Source: a candidate division CPR2 bacterium GW2011_GWC2_39_35
GTDB lineage: Bacteria; Patescibacteriota; CPR2
Length of the DNA stretch: 64,000 bases
NCBI GenBank assembly: GCA_000995065.1
Contig: LBWX01000002.1
Coordinates: forward strand, 159,708-223,707
Direction: 5' to 3'
Below the pieces are notes generated by a model that made no database searches, had not been told where the DNA came from, and saw nothing but the letters and a program-made list of their open reading frames with translations. Numbering within the stretch: position 1 is the first letter of the stretch; every line of letters starts with the position of its first letter. Position numbers and translations under genes: made by a program. This document shows, in pieces, positions 32,081 to 54,427 of the stretch.

Positions 32081-32181
32081 AATTCATATTTTTTATCTGG
32101 AGCCTGGAGTTTAAGTCGAAGTGGTAATATTTTTGACTTTTCGTATCTTAGAGTATAATAAGTTTGTTAAGGATTATATTT

Positions 32182-34531: not shown

Positions 34532-34533
34532 AA

Positions 34534-35151: not shown

Positions 35152-35177
35152 AGGTCAATTAAATAAGAGAGCATAAA

Positions 35178-35798
35178 ATGCAGATAACTAAGATTGAACA
35201 GGGCAAAAAAAGGCAAGATCGGGCTAATGTTTACATAGACGGTGAATTTGCCTTTGCTATCTATCTTGATATTTTGGTTCGGCATGGCTTAGTCAAAGGT
35301 CAAGACATCGGCGAGGATAGAATTAATCAAATAATTCGGGAAGACGAGCTGGGTAAAGCATACGATAGAGCACTTCGTTTTCTTGGTTATCGGATGCGGA
35401 GCGAAAAGGAAGTCAGAGATAAATTAAAGGAAAAGGAATATCAGGATTTCGTGATCGATGAGGTAATAGAGAGACTTAAGAAAAATAAATTTATAAATGA
35501 TTCTCAATTTGCCGATTCTTGGGTTAGGGATCGTACTAATCTAAAACCAACCGGGAAGAAAATGCTTGAGCTCGAACTAAAACAAAAGGGTATTTCTGAA
35601 AGCATAATTATAAATGTGCTCTCTCGTATCGATAAAGAGGATGAATTCGAACTTGCCCAAAAACTCGCCTCAAAAAGAAAGTTTGAAGATTTGGCTCCGG
35701 AAGTGCGTAAAAAGAAAATCACCGATTATCTGTTAAGACGAGGATTTGGGTGGGATGTTATAAAAGAGATTCTGAAAGAAGAATCTGTAAATGAATAA
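35178..35798 (+). CDS. recX: Regulatory protein RecX
   Basis: ~200-aa helical-repeat protein beginning ...RANVYIDGEFAFAIYLDILVRHGL. Position immediately downstream of recA. Confidence 0.7.
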   Translation: MQITKIEQGKKRQDRANVYIDGEFAFAIYLDILVRHGLVKGQDIGEDRINQIIREDELGKAYDRALRFLGYRMRSEKEVRDKLKEKEYQDFVIDEVIERLKKNKFINDSQFADSWVRDRTNLKPTGKKMLELELKQKGISESIIINVLSRIDKEDEFELAQKLASKRKFEDLAPEVRKKKITDYLLRRGFGWDVIKEILKEESVNE

Positions 35799-41469: not shown

Positions 41470-41678
41470 AACCCGTTTATTATCTCATTTTTGAACGTAA
41501 AAAACAAGAAAAATGAGCTGAGAAACACCCTCACTTTTCTTTGCCAGGCAAGAATTACTCTTTATAATAGGTTTTAAAAGGGTGGTTCAGATAAAAACGG
41601 TTGACACTTGACCTGTAAAAAAGCAAAATAATAGCTAGGAGGGTTATTCCTCTTTTAGTTAAGTTAAGTAGAGGAGAT

Positions 41679-44375
41679 ATGATGTTTAGATCTTCAAGAT
41701 TCAAAAAGGTTAGTGTAATTTCGTTTTTCTCGCTTTTTGCTTTGGCGGGAATTTTTTATTTAGGCTGGAATAATTACAAAGACAAGCAGCCCTTGGCTAC
41801 CGTCGGCGACATGAAAATCACATCCCCGGATTTAAAAGCAAAAATTTGGGAAACGGACCTGAAGGGGACGCCTGCCGAACCTTCCAAGGTTGATAAAGTA
41901 GCACAAGGCTACTTGCTCGATTCCTTAATCGAAGAAGAGATTATAAAGAAAGAAGCTGATAAATTAAAAATTACAGCTACAGACAAAGAAATCGAAGATA
42001 GAGCAAAGGCTGATGTAAGCCAGTATGCATTTATGCCAAGCTACCTGCAGGCCAAAATAAAAGAAAATACAAGGGCAGTCGTCTTAAAAAAGAAAATTGA
42101 GGAGAAGGCGGTCAGCTGGAAAGAAGGCAAGACTCTTATTGCCAGATACGATAGATACACTTTTTTAAAAGACGCCAATAAAGACAGCGATAAGCAACAC
42201 GCAGAGACAGTTTTAAAGGATTTAAGAGGTAAGGTGGCATCGGGAGCAGTGACTGTTGATGACGCCATAAAGAGCTTGGAGGCTGATTCGGTAGTAGGCC
42301 TAGAGGCCTACAAGCCAAATTCGCCGGTTATGAGCCATAGTTTTAATAAGGATAAATGGCAGACGGGAGATTTATATTCAAACGAGGCTTTTAGAGAAGG
42401 TACCAAAGGCATCGAAAAGGATAAAATTAGCGAGGTTTTTGAGGTTAAGCTTACCGGTGCCAACGACAAAGAAGATGGCGGGATGTTAGTGGCGGTTTTT
42501 GTAACCTGCAGCAACAGTTACGAAAAAGATAAATATTATTCATATGCAGATTGGCTAAAGGATAAACAGAGAGAATATGGCGTCAAAAAATATTCCTTGC
42601 TTGACGACCAAAGCATTACAAAAGCAATCTACTCAAAACTAGCCTTAGGTGCTAAAAAGTTATTTGCTTCGATTCCCGCTTTTGCCGGTTGTAGCGGCGG
42701 CCTTACGCCTTCGGGAAGTAGCTACCCAACAGCTCTTAAAGTTACTTTTAAATACATTCCAAGCTTAGGTGGAGATCCTGTTGCCTTGACTACGGCCGAT
42801 GTTTCGGTAAATTTTAATCCTAACAGCAGTCAATCTAATCCTTGGAACGAACCATGTGAAACAAGCGGTGTTTATGTTCTTCCCAATGACACTACTGTGC
42901 CAAATGCTAATGAAATGCATACAATGTCCGGAACTACCGGATCCGTAAGCGCCGGAAGTGATGCCACGGTTAAGTTTGGATATAAAGGTTGCGGCGGTGA
43001 TGATAATCATGCCTTTAGCTGTTATTGCGGCGCGAGTGCTAACGACGAACAGTACTATATCATTAACATGAACTATACCGGCAGCACGGGCGGAAAATGG
43101 ATTACGTCTAGGATGTACGGCACTGATTATGGATTAATAAGTGATAACGGGAAGTCAACTTTCAAATTCGACACCGCCGGACATAACGGCGAAACAATAA
43201 TGGTAGATCTAATTTGGGCAAATGAGGCCCCAAACCAATATCCGATTCAGGTAATGGCCGTGGTTCCTGATTTTCAAGATGGATATGGTGTCCAGAGGGT
43301 TGTATCGTCAAATAGTAGTAACGATTGTACCGGAGGGGTCATTGTAGCAGCGCCTCAGATTACGCCCAGCTATAGAATTAGCGCCAATGCTATTGTTATA
43401 AAGGCCAACGAAACTGCAAATCCTTACACTATGGCGTACAGTGCCGGATGCACTGCTACTTACGTAACGGATTCCAATACAAGGACGATCTTAAGTAGCG
43501 GATATGAATTTGTAAAAATTGGGTATAAATATGCCGGCAAGCAGGAAATCTTTGTTGCTAGCGAAACAGCAATTGTTAATTTAGATAGTCTTACTACAAA
43601 CGGTGGCCAAGAACCCGTAAAAGTAACTTTTTATTGGAAGAAGAAAGGTACAAGCGGTTCTGGTGATAATCCAAATGCTCCGGATGATTTGGCCGATCCC
43701 GTCTCTGATGCTAAGTGGGGCAGCTTGAATCCGGAATGCGATGACATGCAAGCTTTACCAATTACCACTAATACCGGCACTGCTGTTACTCTGCAATGTA
43801 AGCCGAGAGTAGAGTATGAGGCGCCAACAGGCATTGACGATAGCCCGTCTATAGGAACGGGTAGAGTATATACCGGCAATACCGGTACGTGTAATGAGAG
43901 TTGTTGTGCTGACTATGATTCAGAAGGGGAACCTACAGGCACTTGTCATGGTTGTAATCCTTGCACCTGGAGAGATTGGTGGAAATACGATAAAAACAAC
44001 GGGCGTTTTGAGCCTATGATATCGAACGCTACTTTTACTATCGATTGGGGAGATGGCGAAGCCAAAAAGACAAAGTTGACCTTCTCAAACGTCAATGTTT
44101 ACCAGTTAAACGAAATGCTTGCCGCTAATACAAAGTACCAGCATTTATACACCGAGAGCGGCAGGTTTACCATTAAGACAACCCTCGATATAACGGCTTC
44201 ATGGCATCGAAAGAAAGTCGAAGAAGATTCAAGCTGTGGATGTGAACCGGATCCAACCGAAGACGAGCCACACACTTACAGCCAAACCGAAACCTGTGAA
44301 TACGGAGTTGAAGTTGTTGTGATGGGATCTAATGAGTCATCGACCGTAGAAGTGGCTCCTCAATCAACACCATAG
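41679..44375 (+). CDS. Large exported protein: N-terminal TM anchor, SurA-N/PpiD-like chaperone-like region, ~550-aa Cys/Thr/Gly-rich beta domain of unknown function
   Basis: Hydrophobic N-terminus. A SurA_N-like helical region (...AQGYLLDSLIEEEIIKKEADKLKITATDKEIEDRAKADV...). The C-terminal half contains >25 Cys including CHGCNPC and SCGCEP clusters. Confidence 0.5.
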   Translation: MMFRSSRFKKVSVISFFSLFALAGIFYLGWNNYKDKQPLATVGDMKITSPDLKAKIWETDLKGTPAEPSKVDKVAQGYLLDSLIEEEIIKKEADKLKITATDKEIEDRAKADVSQYAFMPSYLQAKIKENTRAVVLKKKIEEKAVSWKEGKTLIARYDRYTFLKDANKDSDKQHAETVLKDLRGKVASGAVTVDDAIKSLEADSVVGLEAYKPNSPVMSHSFNKDKWQTGDLYSNEAFREGTKGIEKDKISEVFEVKLTGANDKEDGGMLVAVFVTCSNSYEKDKYYSYADWLKDKQREYGVKKYSLLDDQSITKAIYSKLALGAKKLFASIPAFAGCSGGLTPSGSSYPTALKVTFKYIPSLGGDPVALTTADVSVNFNPNSSQSNPWNEPCETSGVYVLPNDTTVPNANEMHTMSGTTGSVSAGSDATVKFGYKGCGGDDNHAFSCYCGASANDEQYYIINMNYTGSTGGKWITSRMYGTDYGLISDNGKSTFKFDTAGHNGETIMVDLIWANEAPNQYPIQVMAVVPDFQDGYGVQRVVSSNSSNDCTGGVIVAAPQITPSYRISANAIVIKANETANPYTMAYSAGCTATYVTDSNTRTILSSGYEFVKIGYKYAGKQEIFVASETAIVNLDSLTTNGGQEPVKVTFYWKKKGTSGSGDNPNAPDDLADPVSDAKWGSLNPECDDMQALPITTNTGTAVTLQCKPRVEYEAPTGIDDSPSIGTGRVYTGNTGTCNESCCADYDSEGEPTGTCHGCNPCTWRDWWKYDKNNGRFEPMISNATFTIDWGDGEAKKTKLTFSNVNVYQLNEMLAANTKYQHLYTESGRFTIKTTLDITASWHRKKVEEDSSCGCEPDPTEDEPHTYSQTETCEYGVEVVVMGSNESSTVEVAPQSTP

Positions 44376-44454
44376 AAAAGGGCACCTTTAAATATTGCTT
44401 GAAAGATAAACTTGTTATTGATATCCTATAAATGACAAAAGGAGGGTAGTTTAA

Positions 44455-45492
44455 TTGGGCCTATTTAGCAAAAGTGAAGATTTTTTCGGACTAGATATCG
44501 GGTCTATGGCCATTAAGCTGGTTCAGCTTAGAAATACTTCGGATAAGCCCTCCCTTGTTACCTATGGGACGGCGAATATTCCTCTCGGGCTTTCGCAAAG
44601 CGACAGCGAGATTGATATTCGGAGGCTTGCCGAAGTTGTAAAGCAGCTTGCTAAAGGCACTCGGGTAACCACCAAAAATGTGGTTACATCATTGCCGGAG
44701 AACCAGGTTTTTACTCTGGTAACAAAGATACCCCAAATGCCTCCTTTGGAGCTTGCAAAAGCGGTTAAGTGGCAGGCCGATCAAAATCTGCCAATAAAAA
44801 TTGATGATGTAAAGCTGGATTGGCAGGTTATTAATGCGCCTAAGGATGGCAACATTCCTTTTACAGTCATGATTATTGCGGCGCCGATAGAACGAGTAAA
44901 AAGGATTGCCAAGTTAATTGACGAGGCCGGTCTTAACTTATTAGCGCTGGAGACGGCTAATATTGCGATAGCGAGAGCGCTTGCCAATTTGCCTGGCTCT
45001 AAGATAATGATTCTAGATATTGGCGCCATGACGACCGAAATCGCTATCGTAGAGAATCATATAATGCTTCATTCCAGAAGCGTAACTGTCGGCGGTGAAG
45101 CTTTTACCAGGGCAATTTCGCATACTCTGGGTCTTGACCTTACTCAGGCAGAGCAGTTTAAAAAGAAATTTGGTTTAACATTAGACAAATTAGAAGGACG
45201 AGTCTTTAAAGCCGTCAAACCGATCCTTAGCAATATAGTAGACGAGGTTGCAAGGTCAATGCAGTATTTCGAGGAACAATTTGGTTCCAGAGTAGACTTA
45301 GTCCTTATAAGCGGCGGTTCGGCTAAAATGCCGGAGATGGCCACCTTTTTTGCAAAAACATTGAACATTGATGTTCAGATAGCTAATCCCTGGAAAAGAA
45401 TTTCTTTTCCGGTTAGCGTTCAAGAAGATATCTTAAACAATGCGCCGGATTACGCCACGGTAATCGGTCTTGCCATGAGGGAGGCAAAATGA
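44455..45492 (+). CDS. pilM: Type IV pilus assembly protein PilM (actin-like ATPase)
   Basis: FGLDIGSMAIKLVQL N-terminus. ASKHA fold motifs (DIGAMTTEIAIV, ISGGSAKMPEM). Confidence 0.85.
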   Translation: MGLFSKSEDFFGLDIGSMAIKLVQLRNTSDKPSLVTYGTANIPLGLSQSDSEIDIRRLAEVVKQLAKGTRVTTKNVVTSLPENQVFTLVTKIPQMPPLELAKAVKWQADQNLPIKIDDVKLDWQVINAPKDGNIPFTVMIIAAPIERVKRIAKLIDEAGLNLLALETANIAIARALANLPGSKIMILDIGAMTTEIAIVENHIMLHSRSVTVGGEAFTRAISHTLGLDLTQAEQFKKKFGLTLDKLEGRVFKAVKPILSNIVDEVARSMQYFEEQFGSRVDLVLISGGSAKMPEMATFFAKTLNIDVQIANPWKRISFPVSVQEDILNNAPDYATVIGLAMREAK

Positions 45493-46067
45493 AAATAAAC
45501 TTAATACCGGAAGAGAAATCGACCGAAATTAAAGAACAAAGATCCAACTTTACGGCTACGGCAATTGCGATTGTGATTGCAGCTACCGTAATTGGCTTGA
45601 CGGTTCTTCTTCTTAGTGTCAACAAGCTTAAATCTAAGCAGATAGATGATGATAAGAGAAGTATCGATCGAATAAAAAAGGAACTAAAAGATTACGCCGA
45701 AGTCGAAAAAACTCTAATTACAGTCGAAAGCGGAATTGAGGATATAAAGAAGCTGAATGATTCTTCGTTTAAATGGAATCGGGTTTTGATGGAAATCGAA
45801 AAAACGCTTCCTGATGATGTAGTGATAAAAAGCTACGAAAATAACGAAGGAAAGATAAGTATGCGAGCAACTGCCATATCGGTTGAGACCATGAACAAAC
45901 TATTAGAGTCCTTAATGAATCATAAAGTTGCTAAAGCGGGTGATGATAGCATAAGCCCACAAGCTTTATTTAAAGACGTTAAATGTACCGGCTATACAAA
46001 AATAAGCGATAATCAAATTGATTTTGACGTTTCGTTTCAGGTAGAGGGAGGTATCTTATGGAATTAG
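45489..46067 (+). CDS. pilN: Type IV pilus assembly protein PilN
   Basis: Short cytoplasmic N-terminus, single TM (IAIVIAATVIGLTVLLL), then periplasmic coiled-coil. Start overlaps pilM by 4 nt. Confidence 0.6.
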   Translation: MKINLIPEEKSTEIKEQRSNFTATAIAIVIAATVIGLTVLLLSVNKLKSKQIDDDKRSIDRIKKELKDYAEVEKTLITVESGIEDIKKLNDSSFKWNRVLMEIEKTLPDDVVIKSYENNEGKISMRATAISVETMNKLLESLMNHKVAKAGDDSISPQALFKDVKCTGYTKISDNQIDFDVSFQVEGGILWN

Positions 46068-46618
46068 AAAATCAAGGAAGAAGCGGCTACAGTGCTTTAG
46101 TAATCGTAATTGCCATCATTTTTGCCATACTCGTTTCTGTTTTAGGAATTCGGCCGCTTTTAGCTTCTAACGCTAAACTAACCAAAGAGAGAGATCAGAA
46201 GCTTGCGGAGCTTAAACGGTATACCCAAAAAAGAGATATTCTGGTAGATGCTGCCAAAAAAGAAACCGAGCTAAATGCCTTGAAAATAAAAATCCTCGAG
46301 GCTTTACCCCAAAGCAGTGATCCAACCGCTATCTTTGCGCAGATCGAAGGTATTTCCAAAGGTCTTAATGTCGATACTAGGTCCGTCAAACAATCAAGCG
46401 CCAGTAAGGCCAAAAACGCCTCTGTCCACGAGATTGTCTTAAATGTCGCTTCCGGAGGAACCTATGATGATCTTCACAAAACTTTGGAAAAATTGGAGAC
46501 TTCTCTAAGAATATTTAACGTCAAGAAAATTAGCTTATCTCCCAAAAAGGGCGACCGAATTGATTATAGTTTTAATATTAGTACTTATTATAAGGACGAG
46601 GTGAAGCTTGAAGACTAA
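46058..46618 (+). CDS. pilO: Type IV pilus assembly protein PilO
   Basis: Single TM then coiled-coil and a small alpha/beta domain. Position after pilN, overlapping by 10 nt. Confidence 0.55.
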   Translation: MELENQGRSGYSALVIVIAIIFAILVSVLGIRPLLASNAKLTKERDQKLAELKRYTQKRDILVDAAKKETELNALKIKILEALPQSSDPTAIFAQIEGISKGLNVDTRSVKQSSASKAKNASVHEIVLNVASGGTYDDLHKTLEKLETSLRIFNVKKISLSPKKGDRIDYSFNISTYYKDEVKLED

Positions 46619-46940
46619 AGGCGATAGCAAACAAACTATTTTAGCGGCGATCCTTATTATTGTAATTGGTGGCAGCGCCTTCTTTTTTTACAGCTTAAAC
46701 AAAGGTAAAAAGACAAGCGGAGTTAAGGCCAAACCCTTGCCGTTTACCGGTAAGTATGACGTGGAAGGATTTAATAAGTTTCTAATGATTAAGGAAAACG
46801 AAGAAAGGCCATTTTACGCAGTTGTGCCGCCAGATCCGGCTCAAAGCATCTGTCGCAACATTTTTACGGGCAAAAAAAGGGACTTTAGTGCCGAAGAGAA
46901 AGCAATCTGTGAGGGTGTAGGAGAAGAAAAAAAGAACTAA
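46608..46940 (+). CDS. Small single-TM protein in the PilP position of the pilus operon
   Basis: 110 aa with TM ILAAILIIVIGGSAFFFY and a short periplasmic domain with two Cys. Overlaps pilO and abuts pilB. Confidence 0.4.
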   Translation: MKTKGDSKQTILAAILIIVIGGSAFFFYSLNKGKKTSGVKAKPLPFTGKYDVEGFNKFLMIKENEERPFYAVVPPDPAQSICRNIFTGKKRDFSAEEKAICEGVGEEKKN

Positions 46941-48724
46941 TGCTTATAAAAGATCAAAAAAAGTTTGAACAAGTAATCGTAGAGTTAAAAGTCGTAAGTC
47001 CTGATCAATTAGACACTGCTAAAATCGAAAGCGTAAAGCTGGGTAAGTCTTTAGATGAGGTTCTTTTAGAATCCGGCGCTATGAGTGCCGAAGATATTGT
47101 TAAGGCAAAAGCCATTGTCTCAGAGACGCCTTATGTTAACTTGACCAACCAGAAAATTGATGAAAAAATTTTAAAAATTCTAGAAAAAGACTATTGTGAG
47201 CGCTATCAGGTAGTAGTATTTGGCATGGCTAACGGTAAGTTAAATCTAGCTATGCTCGACCCGTACAACGTTCAGGTAATTGATTTTATCGAGAAGAAGT
47301 CGGGTCAGGGGGTAGTGTCTTATGTTGCATCCGCGGCTAGCATTAAACATGTCATTTCTCAGTTCTCAGATTATTCCTCCGAAGTTTCGGAAGCCCTAAA
47401 AGGAATGAGTACCGGACCGGAAGATATTGGGGCGGCTAAAGAAAAAGAATCAGCCAATACGGAGCCATCCGTTATTTCTCAAGACGCTCCGGTAACAAGA
47501 GCGGTTAATACTATCTTGGAATATGCTATAAAGGCTAAGGCTTCCGATATTCATATTGAACCGCGAGAAAAAACGGTCAAGGTAAGATACCGAATCGATG
47601 GTATTCTAAACGACACCATGACCCTACCCAAACATATTCATGCCGCGATTGTTTCGCGTATCAAAATATTATCAAATTTAAAAATAGACGAACATCGCCT
47701 TCCTCAGGACGGTCGTTTCGCCATCAAATTAGAAGATAAGGATGTTGATCTTCGGGTTTCCATTTCTCCGATTTCTTTTGGAGAGAAGGTGGTAATTAGA
47801 ATCTTAGATAAATCGTCCGGAGTTATTACCCTAGAAAAACTAGGGCTCAAAGGGCGGGCTTTCAGGTTGATTAAAGAAGCTTCCGGAAAACCTCATGGTA
47901 TGATTTTATCGACCGGGCCAACCGGTTCTGGTAAATCAACTACTCTCTATGCAATTTTGCAGCGTATAAATTCCGTCGAAGTAAACATCGTAACGCTAGA
48001 GGATCCTGTTGAATATAACGTTGAGGGTATAAATCAGATTCAAGTTAATTCCCAAATCGGGCTTACTTTTGCTTCCGGTCTCCGCTCTATTTTAAGGCAA
48101 GATCCCGATGTCATTATGGTCGGTGAGATTAGAGATACGGAAACCGCTGATCTGGCCGTCCAATCGGCCCTTACGGGGCACATAGTGCTTTCGACTTTGC
48201 ATACCAATTCCGCTTCTGGTGTTTTGCCTCGTCTTAAAGATATGCAGGTGGAGCCGTTTCTTATAGCTTCTACCGTTAATACGGTTATCGGTCAACGTTT
48301 AGTACGAAAGATTTGCGATAAATGTAAAGAGCAATACAAGCCGAGCGAGACAGAACTTGCTTCGATTAAAGAATGTTTAAAAAACGTCTTGCCTAAAAAA
48401 GACGACCCAAGGGCGAGCGAAAAATTAGAGGACGTGGGATATGATAATCTTCCATTTATTGATTCCGGAGATTATAATCTTTATAAGGGAAAAGGTTGTG
48501 ATAATTGCCATGGAACGGGTTATCAGGGCAGGGTTGGCGTATACGAGGTTTTTTCAATTACTCAAGACCTCGAAAAACTATTGCTTCAGGAGGTAACCAG
48601 CAGCGAAATCCAGAATGAGGCAGTAAAGGAAGGGATGGTAACCATGAAACAAGACGGTTATCTAAAAGCCCTAAGCGGTATCACATCTTTAAAAGAAGTG
48701 GCAAGAGTAGCACAAGATTATTAG
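46940..48724 (+). CDS. pilB: Type IV pilus assembly ATPase PilB (GspE family)
   Basis: N-terminal T2SSE_N domain, Walker A GPTGSGKSTTLYA, Asp box, and a tetracysteine CDKCK...CDNCHGTGYQGR zinc motif. Confidence 0.9.
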   Translation: MLIKDQKKFEQVIVELKVVSPDQLDTAKIESVKLGKSLDEVLLESGAMSAEDIVKAKAIVSETPYVNLTNQKIDEKILKILEKDYCERYQVVVFGMANGKLNLAMLDPYNVQVIDFIEKKSGQGVVSYVASAASIKHVISQFSDYSSEVSEALKGMSTGPEDIGAAKEKESANTEPSVISQDAPVTRAVNTILEYAIKAKASDIHIEPREKTVKVRYRIDGILNDTMTLPKHIHAAIVSRIKILSNLKIDEHRLPQDGRFAIKLEDKDVDLRVSISPISFGEKVVIRILDKSSGVITLEKLGLKGRAFRLIKEASGKPHGMILSTGPTGSGKSTTLYAILQRINSVEVNIVTLEDPVEYNVEGINQIQVNSQIGLTFASGLRSILRQDPDVIMVGEIRDTETADLAVQSALTGHIVLSTLHTNSASGVLPRLKDMQVEPFLIASTVNTVIGQRLVRKICDKCKEQYKPSETELASIKECLKNVLPKKDDPRASEKLEDVGYDNLPFIDSGDYNLYKGKGCDNCHGTGYQGRVGVYEVFSITQDLEKLLLQEVTSSEIQNEAVKEGMVTMKQDGYLKALSGITSLKEVARVAQDY

Positions 48725-48732
48725 AGGAGAAA

Positions 48733-48846
48733 ATGTCAAATTACAAAGCTCAAATGCCAAATCAAATCCTAAGTTCAAATGTCAAATTATTTGATATTAA
48801 GTCATTTAAAATTCATTTGGTATTTTGATTTTGACATTTGATATTT
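48733..48846. repeat. Family-X ~115-bp inverted-repeat element (aaatgtcaaat...tttgacattt) between pilB and pilT
   Basis: Homologous along its length to 51261-51373 and 57698-57815. Terminal arms TGTCAAAT / ATTTGACA. Confidence 0.55.
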
Positions 48847-48864
48847 TTAACTTCGGGAGGGAAT

Positions 48865-49932
48865 ATGGTTCAAACAGTTAAAATAGAGACATTACTAGAA
48901 GAAGTCTTAAGGCAGGATGCCTCCGACCTTCATTTATCAGTCGGAGTTCCGCCAACTTTAAGAGTAGATGGAAGGCTTACGCCTTTGTCGGAATATCCTC
49001 CGCTAACGCCGGAACTTGCCGAAAGTCTTGTTTTTCAGATAGTTGATGATAATCAAAAAGAAATTTTGATTCGAGATAAGGAAGTGGACTTTTCTTTTGC
49101 CTTTGGCGATGTAGCAAGGTTTAGGGCAAATGCATATCATCAAAGAGGGAACGTTGGAATTGCTTTAAGGCTTATTCCGGTAAAAATAAGAGGCCTGGAA
49201 GAACTAAACTTACCAAAAACCTGTACTGCTTTTACGCAGTACCCCAGAGGCTTAGTTCTAGTTACCGGACCTACCGGCTCCGGTAAATCCACTACTCTTG
49301 CTGCAATGATTGACACCATAAACAAAGACCGTGCGTGCCACATTATCACTATTGAAGATCCGATTGAATATAATCACGTTAATAAGAAAGCCATTGTTGA
49401 GCAAAGAGAAGTTCATTATGATACTCGATCCTTTGCAGCTGCTTTAAGGTCGGCCCTTCGTGAAGATCCGGATGTTGTTTTAATCGGTGAGATGCGGGAC
49501 TTAGAGACGATTTCTTCGGCTATTACTATTGCTGAGACCGGACACTTGGTGCTTGCAACTTTGCATACCAATAATGCGGCCCAATCTGTAGATAGAATTG
49601 TCGACGTTTTTCCACCGCATCAGCAGCAGCAGATTAGAGTCCAGCTGGCCGGCATCTTGCAGGGAATTGTTTCTCAGAGGTTAATTCCGGCTATTGGAGG
49701 CGGCAGGGTTGCGGTGGCCGAAATTCTTGTTGCGACGCCGGCGGTTCGAAATATTATTAGGGAAGGAAAAACTCATCAGCTAGAAGGCGTCATCCAAACA
49801 GGAACTGAGTTTGGTATGATTACCATGGATGCGGCTCTTGCCAGCTACGTAAAGGCCGGGAAAATTACACTGGATGAAGCAAAAAGTTATGCTATCGATA
49901 TTCCTCAATTGGAAAGGTACATAAGAGGCTAA
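48865..49932 (+). CDS. pilT: Twitching-motility ATPase PilT
   Basis: Walker A GPTGSGKSTTLAAMID, ITIEDPIEY, and AHLVLATLHTN motifs. Ribosome-binding site GGGAGGG lies 4 nt upstream of ATG 48865. Confidence 0.9.
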   Translation: MVQTVKIETLLEEVLRQDASDLHLSVGVPPTLRVDGRLTPLSEYPPLTPELAESLVFQIVDDNQKEILIRDKEVDFSFAFGDVARFRANAYHQRGNVGIALRLIPVKIRGLEELNLPKTCTAFTQYPRGLVLVTGPTGSGKSTTLAAMIDTINKDRACHIITIEDPIEYNHVNKKAIVEQREVHYDTRSFAAALRSALREDPDVVLIGEMRDLETISSAITIAETGHLVLATLHTNNAAQSVDRIVDVFPPHQQQQIRVQLAGILQGIVSQRLIPAIGGGRVAVAEILVATPAVRNIIREGKTHQLEGVIQTGTEFGMITMDAALASYVKAGKITLDEAKSYAIDIPQLERYIRG

Positions 49933-49933
49933 A

Positions 49934-51145
49934 ATGATTTCATTTGTTTACACTGCTAAGACTATAGAGGGGCAGCTTGTTACCGGCGAGATCAATGCGC
50001 CGGATGCAAATACTGTTGCTCGGATGCTAAATGAGCGTCAGCTCTATCCGATGAGGATAGAAGCTAAAAAGAGCTCCAATATCTTAAATTTGAGTTTTTT
50101 TGAAGGAGTTTCCACCAAAGACAAGGCGCTGATTATAAGGCAATTTTCTACCTTAATAATTGCTGGTTTGCCCGTTGCCCAAGCCCTCCAGGTGTTAATA
50201 AAGCAAATTGACAAACCTCATCTTCAAAAGATCTTCATAAAGATTTTAAAAGACATCGAAAATGGCAGTAGTTTATCCGAGGCTTTTTCCCGCTTTCCAA
50301 AAGTTTTTTTAACGACAGATATTAGTCTTATTAAATCGGGAGAGGCTTCCGGTACCTTGGATGTCGTTCTAAAAAGAATGGCAAAGCAGCTGGAAAAAGA
50401 GCAGGCTTTGCATTCAAAAATAAAAAGCGCCATGATTTATCCTTCTTTCGTGGTAGTGGTTGTTATTGGGGTAATTGCCATTATGCTGATGTACGTAATG
50501 CCGAAATTATCCAGCCTGTATGCCGGCTACAAAGGGAAGCTCCCGGCTATTACTCAGCTGATGCTTGATTTAAGTAATTTCCTAATTCATAGCTGGTGGA
50601 TGATTATTATTGGACTTGTACTTCTTGCAGTATCCGGCAGAGCTTTTATTAATACCCCAAACGGTCGCTATATGTGGGATCAAACCAAGCTTGCTATTCC
50701 GGGTATCGGCGCCCTGGTAGAAAAGATAATTTTAGCAAGATTTACAAGAACGCTTGGCACCTTAATGGGAGCAGGAGTACCGGTTTTGGACTCTCTAATG
50801 ATTGCCTCCAAGTCTTGCGGCAATGTAATCTATGAGATAGAAGTTAGAAAGGCGGCGGAAGCGGTAAAAGGCGGTGCGGCGTTGTCCGATCCGTTAAAGA
50901 AAAACCCTCATTTTCCGGCTGTTGTGGGACAAATGATAAACGTTGGGGAACAAACGGGGGAAATGGACGAGATGCTAGAGGGTCTTGCCAACTATTACGA
51001 GGAAGAAGTTGATAATATAATTAAGGGCTTGTCATCGCTTCTAGAGCCGATTATAATTGTGGTATTAGGAGTAGTAGTTGGTGGCATATTAGTAGCCATT
51101 ATGCTGCCGATATACAGTTTGTCACAAGTGATGTTTAAAAAGTAG
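49934..51145 (+). CDS. pilC: Type IV pilus platform protein PilC (GspF family)
   Basis: Duplicated GspF domain with three TM segments. The conserved Gly-rich motif GEQTGEMDEML is present. Confidence 0.85.
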   Translation: MISFVYTAKTIEGQLVTGEINAPDANTVARMLNERQLYPMRIEAKKSSNILNLSFFEGVSTKDKALIIRQFSTLIIAGLPVAQALQVLIKQIDKPHLQKIFIKILKDIENGSSLSEAFSRFPKVFLTTDISLIKSGEASGTLDVVLKRMAKQLEKEQALHSKIKSAMIYPSFVVVVVIGVIAIMLMYVMPKLSSLYAGYKGKLPAITQLMLDLSNFLIHSWWMIIIGLVLLAVSGRAFINTPNGRYMWDQTKLAIPGIGALVEKIILARFTRTLGTLMGAGVPVLDSLMIASKSCGNVIYEIEVRKAAEAVKGGAALSDPLKKNPHFPAVVGQMINVGEQTGEMDEMLEGLANYYEEEVDNIIKGLSSLLEPIIIVVLGVVVGGILVAIMLPIYSLSQVMFKK

Positions 51146-51192
51146 GCTAATGAGTTGATAGGCGAATAAGATACGTCATTTCTGCTGGCACT

Positions 51193-51238
51193 AGTCATTC
51201 TCGCGAAGGCGGGTCCTACGACTCGTACGAGAATCCAG
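51193..51238. repeat. GTCATYC-type hairpin element
   Basis: GTCATTCTCGcgaaggcgggtcctacgactcgtaCGAGAATCCAG. Same terminal motif as 26203-26232. Confidence 0.45.
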
Positions 51239-51260
51239 TGCAGGTGAAAAAAGGAGTTTA

Positions 51261-51373
51261 ATGTCAAATGTCAAAGCTCAAATTTCAAATCAAGTTCTAA
51301 TGTTAAATGCTTTAAATTGGTCATTAAGTCATTTGTCATTCATTTGATATTTGTAATTTGGCATTTGGATTTA
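51261..51373. repeat. Family-X inverted-repeat element directly upstream of the major pilin gene
   Basis: atgtcaaatgtcaaagctcaaat...gtcatt...catttgatatttg...ttggcatttggattt aligns with 48733-48846 and 57698-57815. Confidence 0.55.
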
Positions 51374-51393
51374 ATAATATCTAGGAGGGAATA

Positions 51394-51897
51394 ATGAAGA
51401 AATTTAAGAAAATTAGAGGGGGTGGTGCTAGAGGTTTTACCTTAATCGAGCTATTGGTGGTTATGGCCATTATCGCTATCTTAGTAACGCTTATGATCTG
51501 GGCGATTAATAACGCCAGGATGCAGCAGCGAAATACCCAAAGAAGAAATGTTGTCCAAACTATTAAGACTTCCTTGGAGTCTTATTATAGCTCCAAGAAG
51601 GCTTATCCGGATACTGCTGATGACTCTGTTACTGGCTTTAGTTTAATTGATCCTGACGGAGGAGCTGCTGCGTATTTAAAGGGTTATGTTAAAGATGCCC
51701 CAATTGCCCAGCTTCAGGATCCATCAGGAGAAGAGACAAGGATCTGTTATGAATCGAATATAGGTGCTAAATATTCTCTTGTGATGTTGCCTGAACCTAT
51801 GGATGCTACAGAAAATTGTCCCGAATTATGGGGAACGGATAGACCACTTACTGCAGCAAATGACCTTCCTGATTACGAAGACTTCTCTCAATATTAA
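51394..51897 (+). CDS. pilA: Type IV pilin (major pilin candidate)
   Basis: Prepilin leader MKKFKKIRGGGARG|FTLIELLVVMAIIAIL with Glu+5. Ribosome-binding site GGAGGGAATA-ATG. Confidence 0.8.
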   Translation: MKKFKKIRGGGARGFTLIELLVVMAIIAILVTLMIWAINNARMQQRNTQRRNVVQTIKTSLESYYSSKKAYPDTADDSVTGFSLIDPDGGAAAYLKGYVKDAPIAQLQDPSGEETRICYESNIGAKYSLVMLPEPMDATENCPELWGTDRPLTAANDLPDYEDFSQY

Positions 51898-51930
51898 AAC
51901 TCACTAAAGCGCTACCTGGATAATTAAGAA

Positions 51931-52767
51931 ATGATAATATTTGCAATAACCTTTGGCTTAATAACCGGTTCTTTCCTTAATGCCTACGAATATCGTAAAC
52001 GCACCAAGACTAAAAACGTCTGGCACGGGAGGTCCTTTTGCCCCAAATGTAAGCATAAACTTGGAGCAATGGATTTATTTCCCGTTTTAAGTTATCTTTT
52101 GCTTCAGGGAAGATGCCGGTATTGTAAAAAGCCGATTTCCACCCAGTATCCGATTGTGGAGATGGTGGCCGCCGCTTTGTTCGGTCTAATCTACTGGCAT
52201 TTTTTCCCATCAAACCTTCTAAACCCGATCGATTTTTCTAGCCAAGACATACTTTTAAAATCACTAGGGACTTTAGCCTGGTTTTACTTTGCTTCTGTTC
52301 TAATTCTGGTGGTGATCTCGGACTTAAAAGAGATGATTATTCCGGATGAGGTCGTCTTACCGGCGATAGTAGTGGCTTTTATTTACGGTTTAATAGCATC
52401 AACCTTAGGAGGTTTAGAGTCAGGATATCTTGTGTCTCGGCTTGGGATGCAGCTAATCGCCGGAATAGTTGGCAGCGGCTTCTTTTACTCTATGATTGTT
52501 GTTTCTAAGGGTAAGTGGATGGGGGGCGGAGACGTAAAATTAGCGGCTTTTATGGGATTTGCTCTCGGCTGGCCGCTTATTTTCATTGCTCTTCTTCTGG
52601 CTTTTATCTTAGGATCAATATTCGGAATCGCAATCATTGTTTTAAGGCAAAAAAAATTTGCCGATGCTATTCCTTTCGGGCCGTTTTTAGCTGCCGGAAC
52701 GGTGCTTGCTATTCTTTGGGGCAATGTGGTTCTTACTTGGTACCTGGATAAGCTTATTTTGCTATGA
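51931..52767 (+). CDS. pilD: Prepilin peptidase PilD (A24 family)
   Basis: N-terminal CPKC...CRYC zinc knuckle, multiple TM helices, and conserved Asp-containing GGGDVKL motif. Confidence 0.8.
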   Translation: MIIFAITFGLITGSFLNAYEYRKRTKTKNVWHGRSFCPKCKHKLGAMDLFPVLSYLLLQGRCRYCKKPISTQYPIVEMVAAALFGLIYWHFFPSNLLNPIDFSSQDILLKSLGTLAWFYFASVLILVVISDLKEMIIPDEVVLPAIVVAFIYGLIASTLGGLESGYLVSRLGMQLIAGIVGSGFFYSMIVVSKGKWMGGGDVKLAAFMGFALGWPLIFIALLLAFILGSIFGIAIIVLRQKKFADAIPFGPFLAAGTVLAILWGNVVLTWYLDKLILL

Positions 52768-53390
52768 AACAGGTTTTAAATAAAAGAGGCTATACGTTAA
52801 TAGAAATTGTGGTAGTGATGGCTTTAATTGCAGTAACAACGCTTTTTGCGTTGCTGCCGGCACTTACCAATCGCCGAAGTCAATTAGAATTCGAGACTCG
52901 GGCGCACGAGGTCTTAGGGGAAATTAAGTATGCCCAAAGCTTGGCCAGAGGTGTCATTTGGGAAAATACCGGCGGCTCTAATTTTTCCCCTAAAGCAGTT
53001 TACGCTAAGCTTTATAATGAAGACGATGTTTTGAAATTAGAAATAGTTGGCTATGACAGGGATGCCGATCCATCATCTCCCGTTCATAAAGCCCTGACCT
53101 TTAAGGATCTTAAGATCGATAACTTGAGGGCAGGCGCTATAGATAAGGGTTCTGGCGACACTCTATTCGCCTGCTTCTCCGTGCCGACGGGATTTGCCTC
53201 CGACTATATTGGCAGCGAAGGCAGCTTGGCTTCCAAGTGGGTTTATACGCCGGCTCCGTTTAATTATGCCGACCTGGCGGAACACGAAGACGTTACTTTG
53301 ACGCTAGGAGACGATGAGTTTAAAATCGACTTAAGCTTAAATTTTTCTTCCGGAGATATCTATATAGATAAAGGAGCGGACTTAAAATGA
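52764..53390 (+). CDS. Minor pilin / pseudopilin (GspH/FimT-like)
   Basis: Prepilin leader MKQVLNKRG|YTLIEIVVVMALIAV. Confidence 0.6.
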   Translation: MKQVLNKRGYTLIEIVVVMALIAVTTLFALLPALTNRRSQLEFETRAHEVLGEIKYAQSLARGVIWENTGGSNFSPKAVYAKLYNEDDVLKLEIVGYDRDADPSSPVHKALTFKDLKIDNLRAGAIDKGSGDTLFACFSVPTGFASDYIGSEGSLASKWVYTPAPFNYADLAEHEDVTLTLGDDEFKIDLSLNFSSGDIYIDKGADLK

Positions 53391-53848
53391 GGATCGGCAA
53401 AAGAGGCGAAACAATCCTAGAGGTTGTTGTGGCAATGGGAATCTTGGGTCTTATTATGGCCGGTACGATTTCTATTATTATTCAAATGGGGAATTTGGGA
53501 TACGTAGCCAAATCCAGAGAAGAGGCAACGAAGCTGGCCCAACAGACCATGGAAAACATTTATACTTACAAAGAGAAGAATAAGTGTGATTTTTATAACA
53601 TTGCGGGAAGCAAGGATATCAATAGCGACGGGGAATTGGTTAATTATTCTATTGATGACGGTTACAAGAGGCTGGATGCTACTGATTTTCGAGGTATCGA
53701 AGAAGTTTGGCGCAAAATCGTTATCGAGAGATTAGATTATGATCCTCAAAAATTATTAGTTACGGTAAAGGTAAGATGGCAGAGTAAAGGCATGCCGGAA
53801 CAGTTTTATTCGGTTCAAGCCATTATGGCGGATTGGCAAAGCTTATGA
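53387..53848 (+). CDS. Minor pilin (PilV-like), atypical leader
   Basis: MRIGKRG|ETILEVVVAMGILGLIMAG has an N-terminal hydrophobic helix and Glu+5. It is translationally coupled to its neighbours. Confidence 0.5.
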   Translation: MRIGKRGETILEVVVAMGILGLIMAGTISIIIQMGNLGYVAKSREEATKLAQQTMENIYTYKEKNKCDFYNIAGSKDINSDGELVNYSIDDGYKRLDATDFRGIEEVWRKIVIERLDYDPQKLLVTVKVRWQSKGMPEQFYSVQAIMADWQSL

Positions 53849-54423
53849 GAAACAATAAAGGTTTTACTTTGATTGAATATATTGTGGCGACTGTTCTACT
53901 GGCACTTCTAATATTATTTGCGGTTAATATTTACGTTACGGTTAGCCGAAATCTAATCTTAGCTAACGAGACCAGAACAATGCAAAGCGAAATCAGGAAT
54001 ATTTCGGATGCTATTTCGAGAGTGGCTAGCAACTCGGTTTATGCGGAAATCGACTCTCCCACCCCCTATAGCGACGGGGTGAATCCGGTAGAAGTGGGCA
54101 AGATCAGTTTTTGGACAAAATACGATCCGCAATCTAGGGATGATATACTTCCGGACTATATCTTAGAGCATGTTGTAACAGGGGGTGAAAATACCCTAAA
54201 GCTAACCAGACTAATAAATAATGTTCCGGTTACACAACCGATGGTTAACACCAGCTACCAGATCAGCGAATTTAAAGCGATGCTCAAAAAAAGCGTGCCG
54301 CCGGTTCTGGATTTTGAAATTCATCTTAAAGGCACCGGTGAAGCCGAGGACCGCTATGCTTTTGAATCTAACGAAACTTATATCAGGTCGAGTGTGGCGA
54401 TAGGAGGTCAGCGTGGAGAATAG
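53833..54423 (+). CDS. Minor pilin (PilW-like)
   Basis: MAKLMRNNKG|FTLIEYIVATVLLALLI. Confidence 0.6.
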   Translation: MAKLMRNNKGFTLIEYIVATVLLALLILFAVNIYVTVSRNLILANETRTMQSEIRNISDAISRVASNSVYAEIDSPTPYSDGVNPVEVGKISFWTKYDPQSRDDILPDYILEHVVTGGENTLKLTRLINNVPVTQPMVNTSYQISEFKAMLKKSVPPVLDFEIHLKGTGEAEDRYAFESNETYIRSSVAIGGQRGE

Positions 54424-54427
54424 AGTG

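What the first reader, a model, noticed from the sequence alone, without database searches (positions are those of the whole stretch)
41679..44375. 898-aa exported Cys-rich protein with SurA-like N-terminal region directly upstream of the pilus operon
The N-terminal ~330 aa resemble the SurA-N/PpiD chaperone module. They are TM-anchored and helical, with a KITATDKEIEDRAKADV-type segment. The C-terminal ~550 aa are a novel beta-rich domain with >25 cysteines (CHGCNPC, SCGCEP, CCADYD clusters) and S/T/G-rich stretches. It ends 80 nt before pilM on the same strand. The position and architecture suggest a pilus-associated adhesin or chaperone, or a cell-surface protein mediating attachment. I cannot assign the C-terminal domain to any family.
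Basis: partly seen in the sequence, partly recalled or inferred. Interest (0 to 1): 0.55.

Follow-up and report, generated by a model that had tools for sequence, protein, structure and literature searches.

The report
Pilus-operon chaperone-like surface protein (CPR2)
The first gene of a type IV pilus gene cluster in an ultra-small groundwater bacterium (candidate division CPR2) encodes a membrane-anchored protein that joins a SurA/PpiD-type folding-helper module to a long, cysteine-bearing, beta-rich outer arm of unknown fold; only three other lineages in public data have this fusion, and wherever the neighbourhood can be read it sits directly in front of pilM.

Summary
The 898-aa ORF at 41679-44375 (+) is real. 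The window matches candidate division CPR2 bacterium GW2011_GWC1_41_48, where the protein is annotated hypothetical. The ORF has one N-terminal signal-anchor helix. Next comes a SurA_N-like domain (Pfam, above the curated cut-off) and a probable degenerate parvulin-like domain with no catalytic histidines. This layout resembles PpiD more than PrsA.

Residues 337-898 match no family. They are predicted beta-rich and hold 18 cysteines; the whole protein has 19, not >25. They split into a conserved ~185-aa domain with five invariant Cys, a variable middle, and a sub-threshold PKD-like end with a Cys-cluster insertion.

An exhaustive search of 1.84 billion representative proteins found only three relatives, all with the same architecture. 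In the two whose downstream DNA is held, the gene lies directly upstream of pilM-N-O-x-pilB-pilT-pilC. Their upstream neighbours differ from those in the window. So pilus linkage holds in 3 of 3 readable lineages.

Variation within and between lineages concentrates in the distal C-terminus.

Best reading (about 0.45): a pilus-dedicated, membrane-tethered extracytoplasmic chaperone with a surface-reaching arm. Adhesin and housekeeping-foldase readings remain open. Both structure predictions of the C-terminal part failed (pLDDT about 43).

The parts
41541..41568 (+). Near-consensus sigma-70-like promoter site (TTGCCA-16-TATAAT, 11/12) about 110 nt upstream of the start codon. A second site (TTGACA-17-CAAAAT) lies at 41601-41629.
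   Evidence: The relative in L006 has an equivalent 11/12 site (9838-9866) about 135 nt upstream of its start. These are consensus matches only, not proof of function.
41679..44375 (+). The 898-aa ORF (a GGAG ribosome-binding site lies just upstream; the public gene call starts at the second ATG, giving 897 aa).
41709..41765 (+). N-terminal signal-anchor transmembrane helix (residues ~11-29). The short basic N-terminus is predicted to be cytoplasmic, so residues 30-898 lie outside the membrane.
   Evidence: Hydropathy scan. The feature is conserved in all four relatives and none has an AxA cleavage motif. Topology is inferred from the positive-inside rule.
41781..42113 (+). SurA_N-like helical chaperone domain (residues ~35-145).
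   Evidence: Pfam PF13624/PF13623 are above cut-off in 4/4 relatives. PDB profile hits to the SurA N-domain and the trigger factor C-domain have E 7e-4 to 1e-3. AF2 pLDDT is 57-83 here. It is 37-41% identical between lineages.
42114..42593 (+). Probable degenerate parvulin-like domain plus returning helices (residues ~146-305). The catalytic histidines are absent.
   Evidence: The profile of this region aligns over nearly a whole 116-aa parvulin chain (8sot_A, E 0.023) and over the first helix of SurA P2 (4g2p_A, 1m5y). Pfam Rotamase scores E 0.013 in one member. The model has beta-alpha-alpha-beta topology. The His of the parvulin 'GFHIV' strand aligns to L/M. The evidence is weak but consistent.
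42594..42686 (+). Poorly conserved linker (residues 306-336). It ends in FAGC, which looks like a lipobox only in this protein.
   Evidence: The relatives have AGTC, NGSC and NGKC at this position, so the lipobox reading is rejected.
42687..43238 (+). Conserved family-specific beta-rich domain (residues 337-520). It opens with an invariant G-x-C-x-G-G-L and has five invariant Cys (338, 393, 438, 448, 450; FSCxC motif).
   Evidence: This is the only part of the C-terminal query matched in relatives P0002 and P0003, and the best-matched stretch in P0004. Alignments. It is 31-42% identical between lineages. There is no Pfam, NCBIfam or PDB sequence match. The AF2 model has low confidence.
43239..43727 (+). 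Variable beta-rich middle region and S/G/D/P-rich linker (residues 521-683).
   Evidence: It is 19-24% identical between lineages, with many gaps. Sub-threshold Big_7 hits occur in two relatives.
43728..44228 (+). PKD-like beta-sandwich (residues 684-850; IDWGDGE ... HLYTESGRFTIKTTLDI). It is interrupted by a Cys-cluster insertion (C738-C762: CNESCCADYDSEGEPTGTCHGCNPC).
   Evidence: PKD (PF00801) is the top or only weak hit at homologous positions in 3 of 4 lineages, at 12-18 bits against a cut-off of 23.5. The Cys cluster is shared only with P0004. Membership is not established.
44229..44372 (+). C-terminal tail with SCGCEP and a conserved terminal [WFV]-E-x-x-P motif (VEVAPQSTP here; WWEVAP, WWEGTPN and SFEPAP in the relatives).
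   Evidence: Its meaning is unknown.
44376..44454 (+). 79-nt gap before pilM. No terminator-like site is found and only a weak (9/12) promoter-like match.
   Evidence: The equivalent gaps are 67 nt in L006 and about 70 nt in L008. The L008 gap holds a 17-bp hairpin with no T-run.
44455..55471 (+). Downstream type IV pilus locus: pilM 44455-45492, pilN 45489-46067, pilO 46058-46618, conserved small TM protein 46608-46940, pilB 46940-48724, pilT 48838-49932, pilC 49934-51145, major pilin 51394-51897, pilD 51931-52767, three minor pilins 52764-54423, and a 352-aa TM-anchored protein 54413-55471. There is no secretin.
   Evidence: Pfam scans and translations.

Best explanation
The gene is the leading gene of the type IV pilus (T4P) locus of a small CPR2-related clade. 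It encodes a bitopic envelope protein. A single N-terminal helix anchors it in the cytoplasmic membrane, and everything else lies outside.

The membrane-proximal ~300 residues form a PpiD-type holdase: a SurA_N-like helical chaperone domain plus a parvulin-like domain without catalytic residues. I propose that this module receives or holds the ectodomains of pilins, or of PilN/PilO-type machine parts, as they emerge from Sec next to the pilus platform.

The following ~560 residues form a chain of beta-rich, probably disulfide-stabilised domains. These are a conserved 5-Cys domain, a variable region and a PKD-like end. I propose that they extend through the wall or S-layer of this secretin-less, single-membrane cell, with the fast-evolving distal end exposed at the surface.

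Shown here: the domain order, membership of SurA_N, the tiny family size, the conserved position in front of pilM, and the gradient of conservation. Inferred: topology, loss of isomerase activity, disulfides, co-transcription, the clients and the role of the arm.
For: Architecture:
- One TM helix only.
- SurA_N_3 and SurA_N_2 are above Pfam cut-off in 4/4 members.
- The family profile hits the SurA N-domain, the trigger-factor C-domain and parvulin domains.
- Foldseek's best hits to the model are LIC12922 (E 9.5e-5) and SurA 1m5y (E 1.9e-3).

Linkage to the pilus locus:
- Relatives P0002 (L006, L007, L010, L011) and P0003 (L008) lie 67 nt and ~70 nt upstream of pilM-N-O-x (followed by pilB-pilT-pilC where the contig extends that far). 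Upstream of P0002 lie DUF2079 and an FGE-sulfatase gene instead of ychF.
- These lineages are well diverged from the window: PilM 49-54%, PilB 65%, PilN/O 24-28% identical.
- The fusion protein diverges at about the rate of PilN/PilO, at 33%.
- A near-consensus promoter-like site lies upstream of the gene in the window and in L006. No terminator-like site lies in the gap before pilM.

Rarity: only 3 relatives were found among 1.84 billion representative proteins, all with the same architecture.

Conservation pattern: the SurA_N domain (37-41%) and the 5-Cys domain (31-42%) are the conserved cores, and the distal end is 11-30% identical.

Disulfides are plausible outside this cell. The major pilin of the locus has a C-terminal Cys pair, and MdbA-like oxidoreductases are reported to be enriched in CPR (PMC6744442).

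CPR T4P loci lack PilQ (PMC6744442), so how the fibre crosses the envelope is an open question.
Against: - There is no experimental or expression evidence. Weak promoter-like matches precede pilM in the window, and L008 has a strong hairpin in the gap, so co-transcription is not shown.
- All four lineages belong to one narrow clade, so conserved synteny could partly reflect shared ancestry.
- The fourth relative's contig ends 75 nt after the gene.
- T4P systems elsewhere work without such a protein. A search of the paper library for PrsA, foldase, pilin and type IV pili together found nothing relevant, as did one for PpiD, chaperone, pilin and type IV pilus.
- The parvulin assignment rests on marginal E-values (0.013-0.08).
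- The fold of the C-terminal 560 aa is unknown (pLDDT 20-45).
- I could not test whether the genome has another PpiD/PrsA-type gene.
Confidence: 0.45

Rival explanations
1. The protein is a surface adhesin or host-recognition protein that is merely co-regulated with the pilus. In this reading the beta-rich C-terminal arm with its variable PKD-like tip is the working part. The SurA-like module acts only as a membrane-proximal stalk or as an intramolecular folding aid for its own arm.
For: - The distal C-terminus is the least conserved part between lineages, at 11-30%.
- It is also the most variable part within the P0002 population. Eleven of 20 variable residues fall in the last 159 aa, against 1 in the 290-aa chaperone module (binomial p 4e-4 and 2e-3).
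- Mosaic tracts of mostly synonymous differences are confined to codons 735-792, in otherwise near-clonal loci.
- PKD-like and Ig-like hints appear. The low-confidence domain model resembles elongated Ig-like pilin or adhesin domains only weakly (E >= 0.04).
- CPR bacteria are described as episymbionts that use surface structures for host contact (PMC12206443, PMC6744442).
Against: - The most conserved parts are the chaperone module and the membrane-proximal 5-Cys domain, not the tip.
- No recognised adhesin domain reaches threshold.
- A 300-aa SurA_N/parvulin module is an odd stalk. Nothing explains why it is kept at 37-41% identity if it is only a spacer.
Confidence: 0.27
2. The protein is the clade's housekeeping PpiD/PrsA-type general secretion foldase. 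It has acquired a lineage-specific C-terminal extension, and its position next to the pil locus is inherited gene order without functional meaning.
For: - The N-terminal architecture (TM anchor, SurA_N, inactive parvulin-like domain) matches PpiD, a general Sec-associated chaperone according to established knowledge of E. coli.
- Large surface foldases with extra domains exist in other minimal bacteria, for example Mpn444/Mpn436 (bioRxiv 10.1101/2024.09.05.611430).
- The four lineages are related, so synteny may be ancestral.
Against: - The upstream neighbours have been reshuffled (ychF against DUF2079/FGE-sulfatase) while the junction with pilM was kept.
- The gap to pilM is short and has no terminator-like site.
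- A housekeeping foldase would be expected to have many detectable relatives across CPR. Only the C-terminal part was searched exhaustively, and the word-index search with the N-terminal part returned nothing. That result is uninformative, because it did not even recover the protein itself.
Confidence: 0.2
3. The ORF is an artefact: two genes (a ~330-aa PpiD-like protein and a lipoprotein that starts at the FAGC 'lipobox') joined by an assembly or frame error.
For: KKLFASIPAFAGC at residues 326-338 resembles a lipoprotein signal peptide.
Against: - The same uninterrupted ORF occurs in 16 contigs from independent assemblies.
- The fusion is conserved in three other lineages, whose equivalent segments (AGTC, NGSC, NGKC) are neither lipoboxes nor hydrophobic.
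- No internal start codon with a ribosome-binding site is evident.
Confidence: 0.02

Closest known systems
PpiD (E. coli periplasmic, inner-membrane-anchored chaperone; Pfam SurA_N_3/SurA_N_2 plus an inactive parvulin domain)
   Same: Both have an N-terminal signal-anchor helix and a SurA_N-like helical domain that matches the same Pfam models. Both then have a parvulin-like domain that lacks the catalytic histidines, and the whole body lies on the outer side of the cytoplasmic membrane.
   Different: The window protein carries ~560 extra C-terminal residues of unknown, Cys-containing beta-rich fold. It is encoded at the head of a T4P operon rather than as a stand-alone housekeeping gene. Sequence similarity is limited to the domain level. 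Association with Sec was not tested.
SurA (E. coli) and LIC12922 (Leptospira interrogans, PDB 3nrk)
   Same: These are the best structural matches of the model's N-terminal third (E 9.5e-5 and 1.9e-3). The family profile matches the SurA N-domain and the first helix of SurA P2.
   Different: SurA and LIC12922 are soluble periplasmic proteins of two-membrane bacteria that serve outer-membrane protein biogenesis. This organism has no recognised outer-membrane machinery in the locus, and the protein is membrane-anchored with a large extra arm.
PrsA (Bacillus subtilis extracellular foldase lipoprotein)
   Same: Both are extracytoplasmic, membrane-tethered foldases of single-membrane bacteria with a chaperone domain plus a parvulin domain. 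NCBIfam PRK00059 gives a weak hit (E 0.0028).
   Different: PrsA is lipid-anchored through an N-terminal lipobox and has an active parvulin domain. Here the anchor is a TM helix, the catalytic residues are missing, and the NCBIfam score (17 bits) is far below the cut-off (303).
Mpn444/Mpn436 of Mycoplasma pneumoniae (large essential surface foldases; bioRxiv 10.1101/2024.09.05.611430)
   Same: These are a working analogy: minimal-genome, periplasm-less bacteria with very large surface-anchored proteins that combine a SurA/PrsA/LIC12922-like chaperone domain and a parvulin domain with large additional domains.
   Different: They are lipoproteins with measurable PPIase activity and are proposed to be general, Sec-linked foldases. 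No sequence relationship was shown here, and they have no pilus linkage.
PKD domain (Pfam PF00801) surface proteins
   Same: The WGDG-type and H-x-Y-x-x-x-G-x-[YF]-x-[IV] motifs are present, with weak PKD hits at homologous positions in 3 of 4 lineages.
   Different: All scores (12-18 bits) are below the 23.5-bit cut-off. The putative domain is split by a ~60-aa Cys-cluster insertion in the window protein.

Membership tests
SurA_N-like domain (Pfam PF13624 SurA_N_3 / PF13623 SurA_N_2) | Score above Pfam's gathering threshold for the model | tested here: met
   33.2 bits against 27.2 and 30.3 against 28.5 for the window protein. All four relatives match, with a best E of 1.7e-10.
PpiD-type membrane-anchored chaperone | Single N-terminal transmembrane anchor with the body outside the cytoplasmic membrane | tested here: met
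   There is one hydrophobic segment at residues 11-29, preceded by basic residues and not followed by a conserved cleavage motif. Topology is inferred.
PpiD-type membrane-anchored chaperone | Parvulin-fold domain inserted after the SurA_N-like domain and devoid of PPIase catalytic residues | tested here: inconclusive
   The profile of residues 143-305 aligns to the parvulin chain 8sot_A (E 0.023) and to SurA P2 (E 0.083). Rotamase scores E 0.013 in one member. The His of the last strand is replaced by L/M. The model has only medium to low confidence here.
PpiD-type membrane-anchored chaperone | Physical association with the SecYEG translocon and YfgM | not testable with these tools
   This needs cross-linking or co-purification.
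PrsA foldase lipoprotein | N-terminal lipoprotein signal peptide with a lipobox Cys | tested here: not met
   The N-terminus is a signal anchor with no Cys. The internal FAGC at 335-338 is not conserved.
PrsA foldase lipoprotein | NCBIfam equivalog PRK00059 above cut-off, with an active parvulin domain | tested here: not met
   17.1 bits against a cut-off of 303. The catalytic His is absent.
PKD domain (PF00801) | Score above the gathering threshold (23.5 bits) | tested here: not met
   The scores are 12.0-12.1 bits (window), 16.9-18.4 bits (P0004) and 11.8-14.7 bits (P0003). The motifs are present, but membership is not established.
Known T4P or T2SS accessory families (PilP, PilQ secretin, PilY1, TsaP, pilotins) | A match to any Pfam or NCBIfam model of these families | tested here: not met
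   No hit other than SurA_N was found, even at E <= 1 to 10.
Type IV pilus operon member (by context) | Conserved same-strand adjacency to pilM in diverged genomes | tested here: met
   This holds in 3 of 3 lineages with readable downstream DNA: the window, P0002 (four contigs) and P0003. Their upstream neighbours differ. P0004's contig is too short to tell.
Type IV pilus operon member (by context) | Co-transcription with pilM-pilC | tested here: inconclusive
   The gaps are short and hold no terminator-like site in the window or L006. However, a weak promoter-like match precedes pilM in the window, and L008 has a strong hairpin in the gap.

The most novel reading that the evidence does not exclude
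The protein is a previously unrecognised structural component of the type IV pilus machine in secretin-less, single-membrane CPR bacteria. In this reading the PpiD-like module docks at the PilMNO/PilC platform. The conserved 5-Cys domain and the following beta-domains form the envelope-spanning collar or guide, or a pilus-associated host-recognition arm, that takes over the job done by PilP/PilQ in two-membrane bacteria. The recombining, variable distal end would then act as a host-specificity determinant.
Probability: 0.15. Interest if true: 0.75.

Novelty: new variant of a known kind. Interest (0 to 1): 0.45.

Why it matters
CPR/Patescibacteria rely on type IV pili for host contact, motility and probably DNA uptake (PMC12206443, PMC6744442). 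Their pilus loci lack a secretin, and it is not known how pilins are folded outside the cell or how the fibre crosses the wall and S-layer.

A pilus-operon-encoded, membrane-tethered chaperone fused to a long surface arm would be a concrete candidate for that missing step. The held literature describes no SurA/PpiD/PrsA-type module linked to a T4P operon.

Against this, the family is confined to four closely related uncultivated lineages. It would therefore be a clade-specific solution rather than a general one, and nothing about its function has been shown yet.

Tried and rejected
1. Word-index homologue searches. I queried with the full protein, with the four-member alignment and with the N-terminal 329 aa. 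The first two returned only the protein itself and the third returned nothing. The third result is uninformative, because it did not even recover the query's own entry.
2. Locus scans. Two scans of GTDB species genomes with family alignments found no locus. The metagenome scan recovered only more copies of the P0002 lineage.
3. Structure prediction. The full-length model built from the 4-sequence alignment had mean pLDDT 42.7 and the C-terminal part scored 20-45. The isolated 5-Cys domain had pLDDT 42.8.
5. PDB sequence and profile searches with the 5-Cys domain and with the C-terminal end found nothing meaningful.
6. Internal repeats: none.
7. Lipoprotein or two-gene fusion idea based on FAGC at 335-338: rejected, because the motif is not conserved.
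8. Paralogues or reuse of the 5-Cys domain in pilins or other ORFs of the window and the fetched loci: none.
9. Diversity-generating retroelement as the source of the C-terminal variation: rejected, because the differences are mostly synonymous third-position changes.
Full report
**Observation**

The ORF at 41679-44375 on the + strand is real and encodes 898 aa. It matches 100% a protein annotated as hypothetical in candidate division CPR2 bacterium GW2011_GWC1_41_48. It was recovered in 16 contigs from independent assemblies of groundwater metagenomes, so it is not an assembly accident.

The quoted motifs are all present. The stop codon ends at 44375 and pilM starts at 44455, leaving a 79-nt gap on the same strand. 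One number in the finding is wrong. The protein has 19 cysteines, 18 of them after residue 336, not more than 25.

**Surroundings**

Downstream, on the same strand, lies a complete type IV pilus locus:
- pilM, pilN and pilO;
- a small conserved TM protein;
- pilB, pilT and pilC;
- a major pilin with a G|FTLIE prepilin motif and a C-terminal Cys pair;
- pilD and three minor pilins;
- a 352-aa TM-anchored protein.

The locus ends at 55471 and has no secretin. Upstream, on the opposite strand, are ychF and an M20 peptidase gene.

A near-consensus sigma-70-like site (11/12) lies about 110 nt upstream of the start codon. The gap before pilM has no terminator-like site and only a weak 9/12 promoter-like match.

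**Anatomy of the N-terminal third**

There is one hydrophobic helix (residues ~11-29), preceded by RSSRFKK, and no other hydrophobic segment. By the positive-inside rule this places residues 30-898 outside the cytoplasmic membrane.

Residues 9-113 match Pfam SurA_N_3 and SurA_N_2 above their curated cut-offs, as do all three relatives. A profile of the family's N-terminal part hits three kinds of PDB chain:
- the trigger factor C-domain (E 7e-4);
- the SurA N-domain (E 1e-3);
- with a second stretch, the first helix of SurA's second parvulin domain.

A profile of residues 143-305 aligns along almost the whole of a 116-aa parvulin chain (8sot_A, E 0.023). The histidine of the last parvulin strand is replaced by L/M in that alignment. 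Pfam Rotamase appears at E 0.013 in one member.

The AlphaFold2 model is of usable confidence only in this region (pLDDT 57-83 over most of residues 35-200). Its best Foldseek matches in the PDB are the SurA-like leptospiral protein LIC12922 (3nrk, E 9.5e-5) and SurA (1m5y, E 1.9e-3).

The layout is TM anchor, then a SurA_N-like domain, then a parvulin-like domain that is probably catalytically dead. That is the PpiD layout and not the PrsA one, because there is no lipobox and NCBIfam PRK00059 scores 17 bits against a cut-off of 303.

**Anatomy of the C-terminal two thirds**

Nothing in Pfam, NCBIfam or PDB sequences matches this part. There are no internal repeats.

Comparison with the relatives divides it into regions:
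- **Linker (306-336).** Poorly conserved.
- **Conserved domain (337-520).** It opens with an invariant G-x-C-x-G-G-L and has five invariant cysteines (338, 393, 438, 448, 450, the last two in an FSCxC motif). It is 31-42% identical between lineages.
- **Variable middle region (521-683).** 19-24% identical.
- **PKD-like end (684-850).** It carries WGDG-type and H-x-Y-x-x-x-G-x-[FY] motifs. PKD is the top or only weak Pfam hit at the same position in three of the four lineages, but always below threshold (12-18 bits against 23.5). In the window protein and P0004 it is interrupted by a cluster of 7-8 cysteines.
- **Tail (851-898).** It ends in a conserved [WFV]-E-x-x-P motif.

Seven cysteines are invariant across the family, and P0003 has exactly those seven. 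At least one cysteine should therefore be unpaired or metal-bound.

Both structure predictions of this part failed. The full-length model scored pLDDT 20-45 here and the isolated 5-Cys domain scored 42.8. The weak Foldseek resemblance of the domain model to elongated Ig-like pilin and adhesin domains (E >= 0.04) is not evidence. All that can be said is that this part is predicted to be strand-rich.

**How rare the family is and where it sits**

An exhaustive HMMER search of residues 330-898 against 1.84 billion representative proteins found only three relatives: P0002 (824 aa), P0003 (842 aa) and P0004 (901 aa). All three have the same full architecture.

- **P0002** comes from 'bacterium CG..._33_...' genomes of about 33% G+C, named as in public records.
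- In four P0002 contigs and in the single P0003 contig, the gene lies directly upstream of pilM-pilN-pilO-small ORF. The P0002 contigs continue into pilB-pilT-pilC.
- The genes upstream of P0002 are DUF2079 and an FGE-sulfatase gene, not ychF as in the window.
- **P0004's** contig ends 75 nt after the gene. Its upstream gene is a ychF that is 65% identical to the window's.

These lineages are well separated from the window organism: PilM 49-54%, PilB 65%, PilT 71% and PilN/PilO 24-28% identical. The fusion protein, at about 33%, diverges like PilN/PilO.

The caveat is that all of them belong to one narrow clade.

L006 also carries a second, partial pil cluster without such a gene.

**Population variation**

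Eleven full-length variants of P0002 differ at 20 positions. One lies in the 290-aa chaperone module and 11 lie in the last 159 aa (binomial p 2e-3 and 4e-4).

At the DNA level, two of four near-clonal loci carry short tracts of dense, mostly third-position differences, confined to codons 735-792. L006 and L010 differ at only 1 site over 5.5 kb of pilM-pilT. Within the gene, L010 alone differs from the other three copies at 16 sites within 103 nt, and L011 alone at 6 sites within 40 nt.

This looks like recombination with divergent alleles, or a mixture of co-existing strains, at the distal end. It does not look like diversity-generating retroelement mutagenesis. The distal end is thus the fast-evolving part both within and between lineages, as expected for a surface-exposed region.

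**Interpretation**

PpiD is a membrane-anchored holdase that receives chains emerging from Sec. Type IV pilins are inserted through Sec and fold on the outer side before PilD processing. Both statements rest on established knowledge, not on tests made here.

CPR pilus loci lack PilQ, and CPR genomes are reported to be enriched in MdbA-like disulfide oxidoreductases thought to serve pilin folding (PMC6744442). Saccharibacteria use two T4P systems for host binding and twitching (PMC12206443).

Against that background, my best-supported reading (about 0.45) has two parts. The membrane-proximal module is a pilus-dedicated holdase. The long beta-rich arm reaches through the wall or S-layer to the surface.

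Two rivals remain:
- An adhesin co-regulated with the pilus, whose chaperone-like module is a stalk or an intramolecular folding aid (about 0.27). The variable tip favours this. The strong conservation of the chaperone module counts against it.
- The clade's housekeeping PpiD-type foldase with a lineage-specific extension and inherited gene order (about 0.2). The PpiD-like layout and the Mycoplasma Mpn444/Mpn436 precedent (bioRxiv 10.1101/2024.09.05.611430) favour this. The retained pilM junction despite reshuffled upstream genes counts against it.

A two-gene fusion artefact is excluded.

**Comparison and novelty**

The N-terminal domain is a tested member of the SurA_N-like Pfam families. 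The protein works like PpiD or PrsA in layout. It fails the PrsA tests, and its parvulin domain and Sec association remain unproven. The C-terminal 560 residues belong to no described family, and PKD membership was tested and not met.

I found no paper that links a SurA/PpiD/PrsA-type module to a type IV pilus operon. I therefore class this as a new variant of a known kind: a known chaperone module in a new fusion and a new, conserved operon context.

Interest is moderate (0.45). It offers a concrete candidate for how secretin-less CPR cells fold or guide pili. However, it is restricted to four uncultivated lineages, its key domain has no assignable fold, and no functional evidence exists.

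Noticed in passing
L010 8984-11458 (gene nt 2205-2307) and L011 4795-7269 (gene nt 2337-2376), compared with L006 and L007: In otherwise near-clonal copies of the P0002 locus (1 difference in 5.5 kb of pilM-pilT), two short tracts in the C-terminal PKD-like end carry 16 and 6 differences, mostly synonymous. This looks like recombination with divergent alleles or strain mixing in the assemblies.
   Followed up: partly
L008 2630-2667: A perfect 17-bp GC-rich inverted repeat (predicted -37 kcal/mol) sits between the relative's stop codon and the likely true pilM start. No T-run follows it on the + strand. It may be a transcript-processing, attenuation or REP-like element, and it is absent from the window and from L006.
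   Followed up: partly
window 44346-44372 (last residues of the protein) and the C-termini of P0002-P0004: The C-terminal ending [WFV]-E-x-x-P is conserved (VEVAPQSTP, WWEGTPN, WWEVAP, SFEPAP). From memory only, it recalls the aromatic SurA-binding peptide WEYIPNV, so it could dock back onto the chaperone module. I did not test this.
   Followed up: no
window 42690-42692 (Cys338) and the six other invariant Cys codons of the gene: Seven cysteines are invariant in the family, and three of the four proteins have an odd number of extracytoplasmic cysteines. At least one thiol is therefore unpaired. The first sits in an invariant G-x-C-x-G-G-L at the start of the conserved domain.
   Followed up: no
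window 46608-46940: A 110-aa protein with one N-terminal TM helix lies between pilO and pilB and has no family match. Counterparts of 101 and 94 aa occupy the same position in L006 and L008 (35% identical to each other). It may be a PilP-like or clade-specific pilus platform component.
   Followed up: partly
window 54413-55471: The last gene of the pilus locus encodes a 352-aa protein with an N-terminal hydrophobic helix and several Cys pairs but no Pfam match. It may be a PilX-like or tip-associated minor pilin.
   Followed up: no
window 33551-35798: recA and recX lie about 6 kb upstream of the pilus locus. The second T4P locus of Saccharibacteria TM7x is reported to include a recAX operon (PMC12206443), so the proximity may be a recurring CPR feature linked to DNA uptake.
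   Followed up: no
L006 343-3908: The P0002 lineage has a second, partial pilus cluster (pilM-like, three small ORFs and pilC, with no ATPase) about 6 kb upstream. It is preceded by a CAP-domain protein rather than a SurA-like gene.
   Followed up: no
window 32164-33396: A 410-aa protein with bacterial Ig-like domains (Big_13, Big_6, Big_1) is encoded just upstream of recA. It is another probable surface protein in the neighbourhood.
   Followed up: no
window 55468-56433 (- strand): A tyrosine recombinase (XerC/D-like or phage integrase family) gene abuts the 3' end of the pilus locus on the opposite strand.
   Followed up: no
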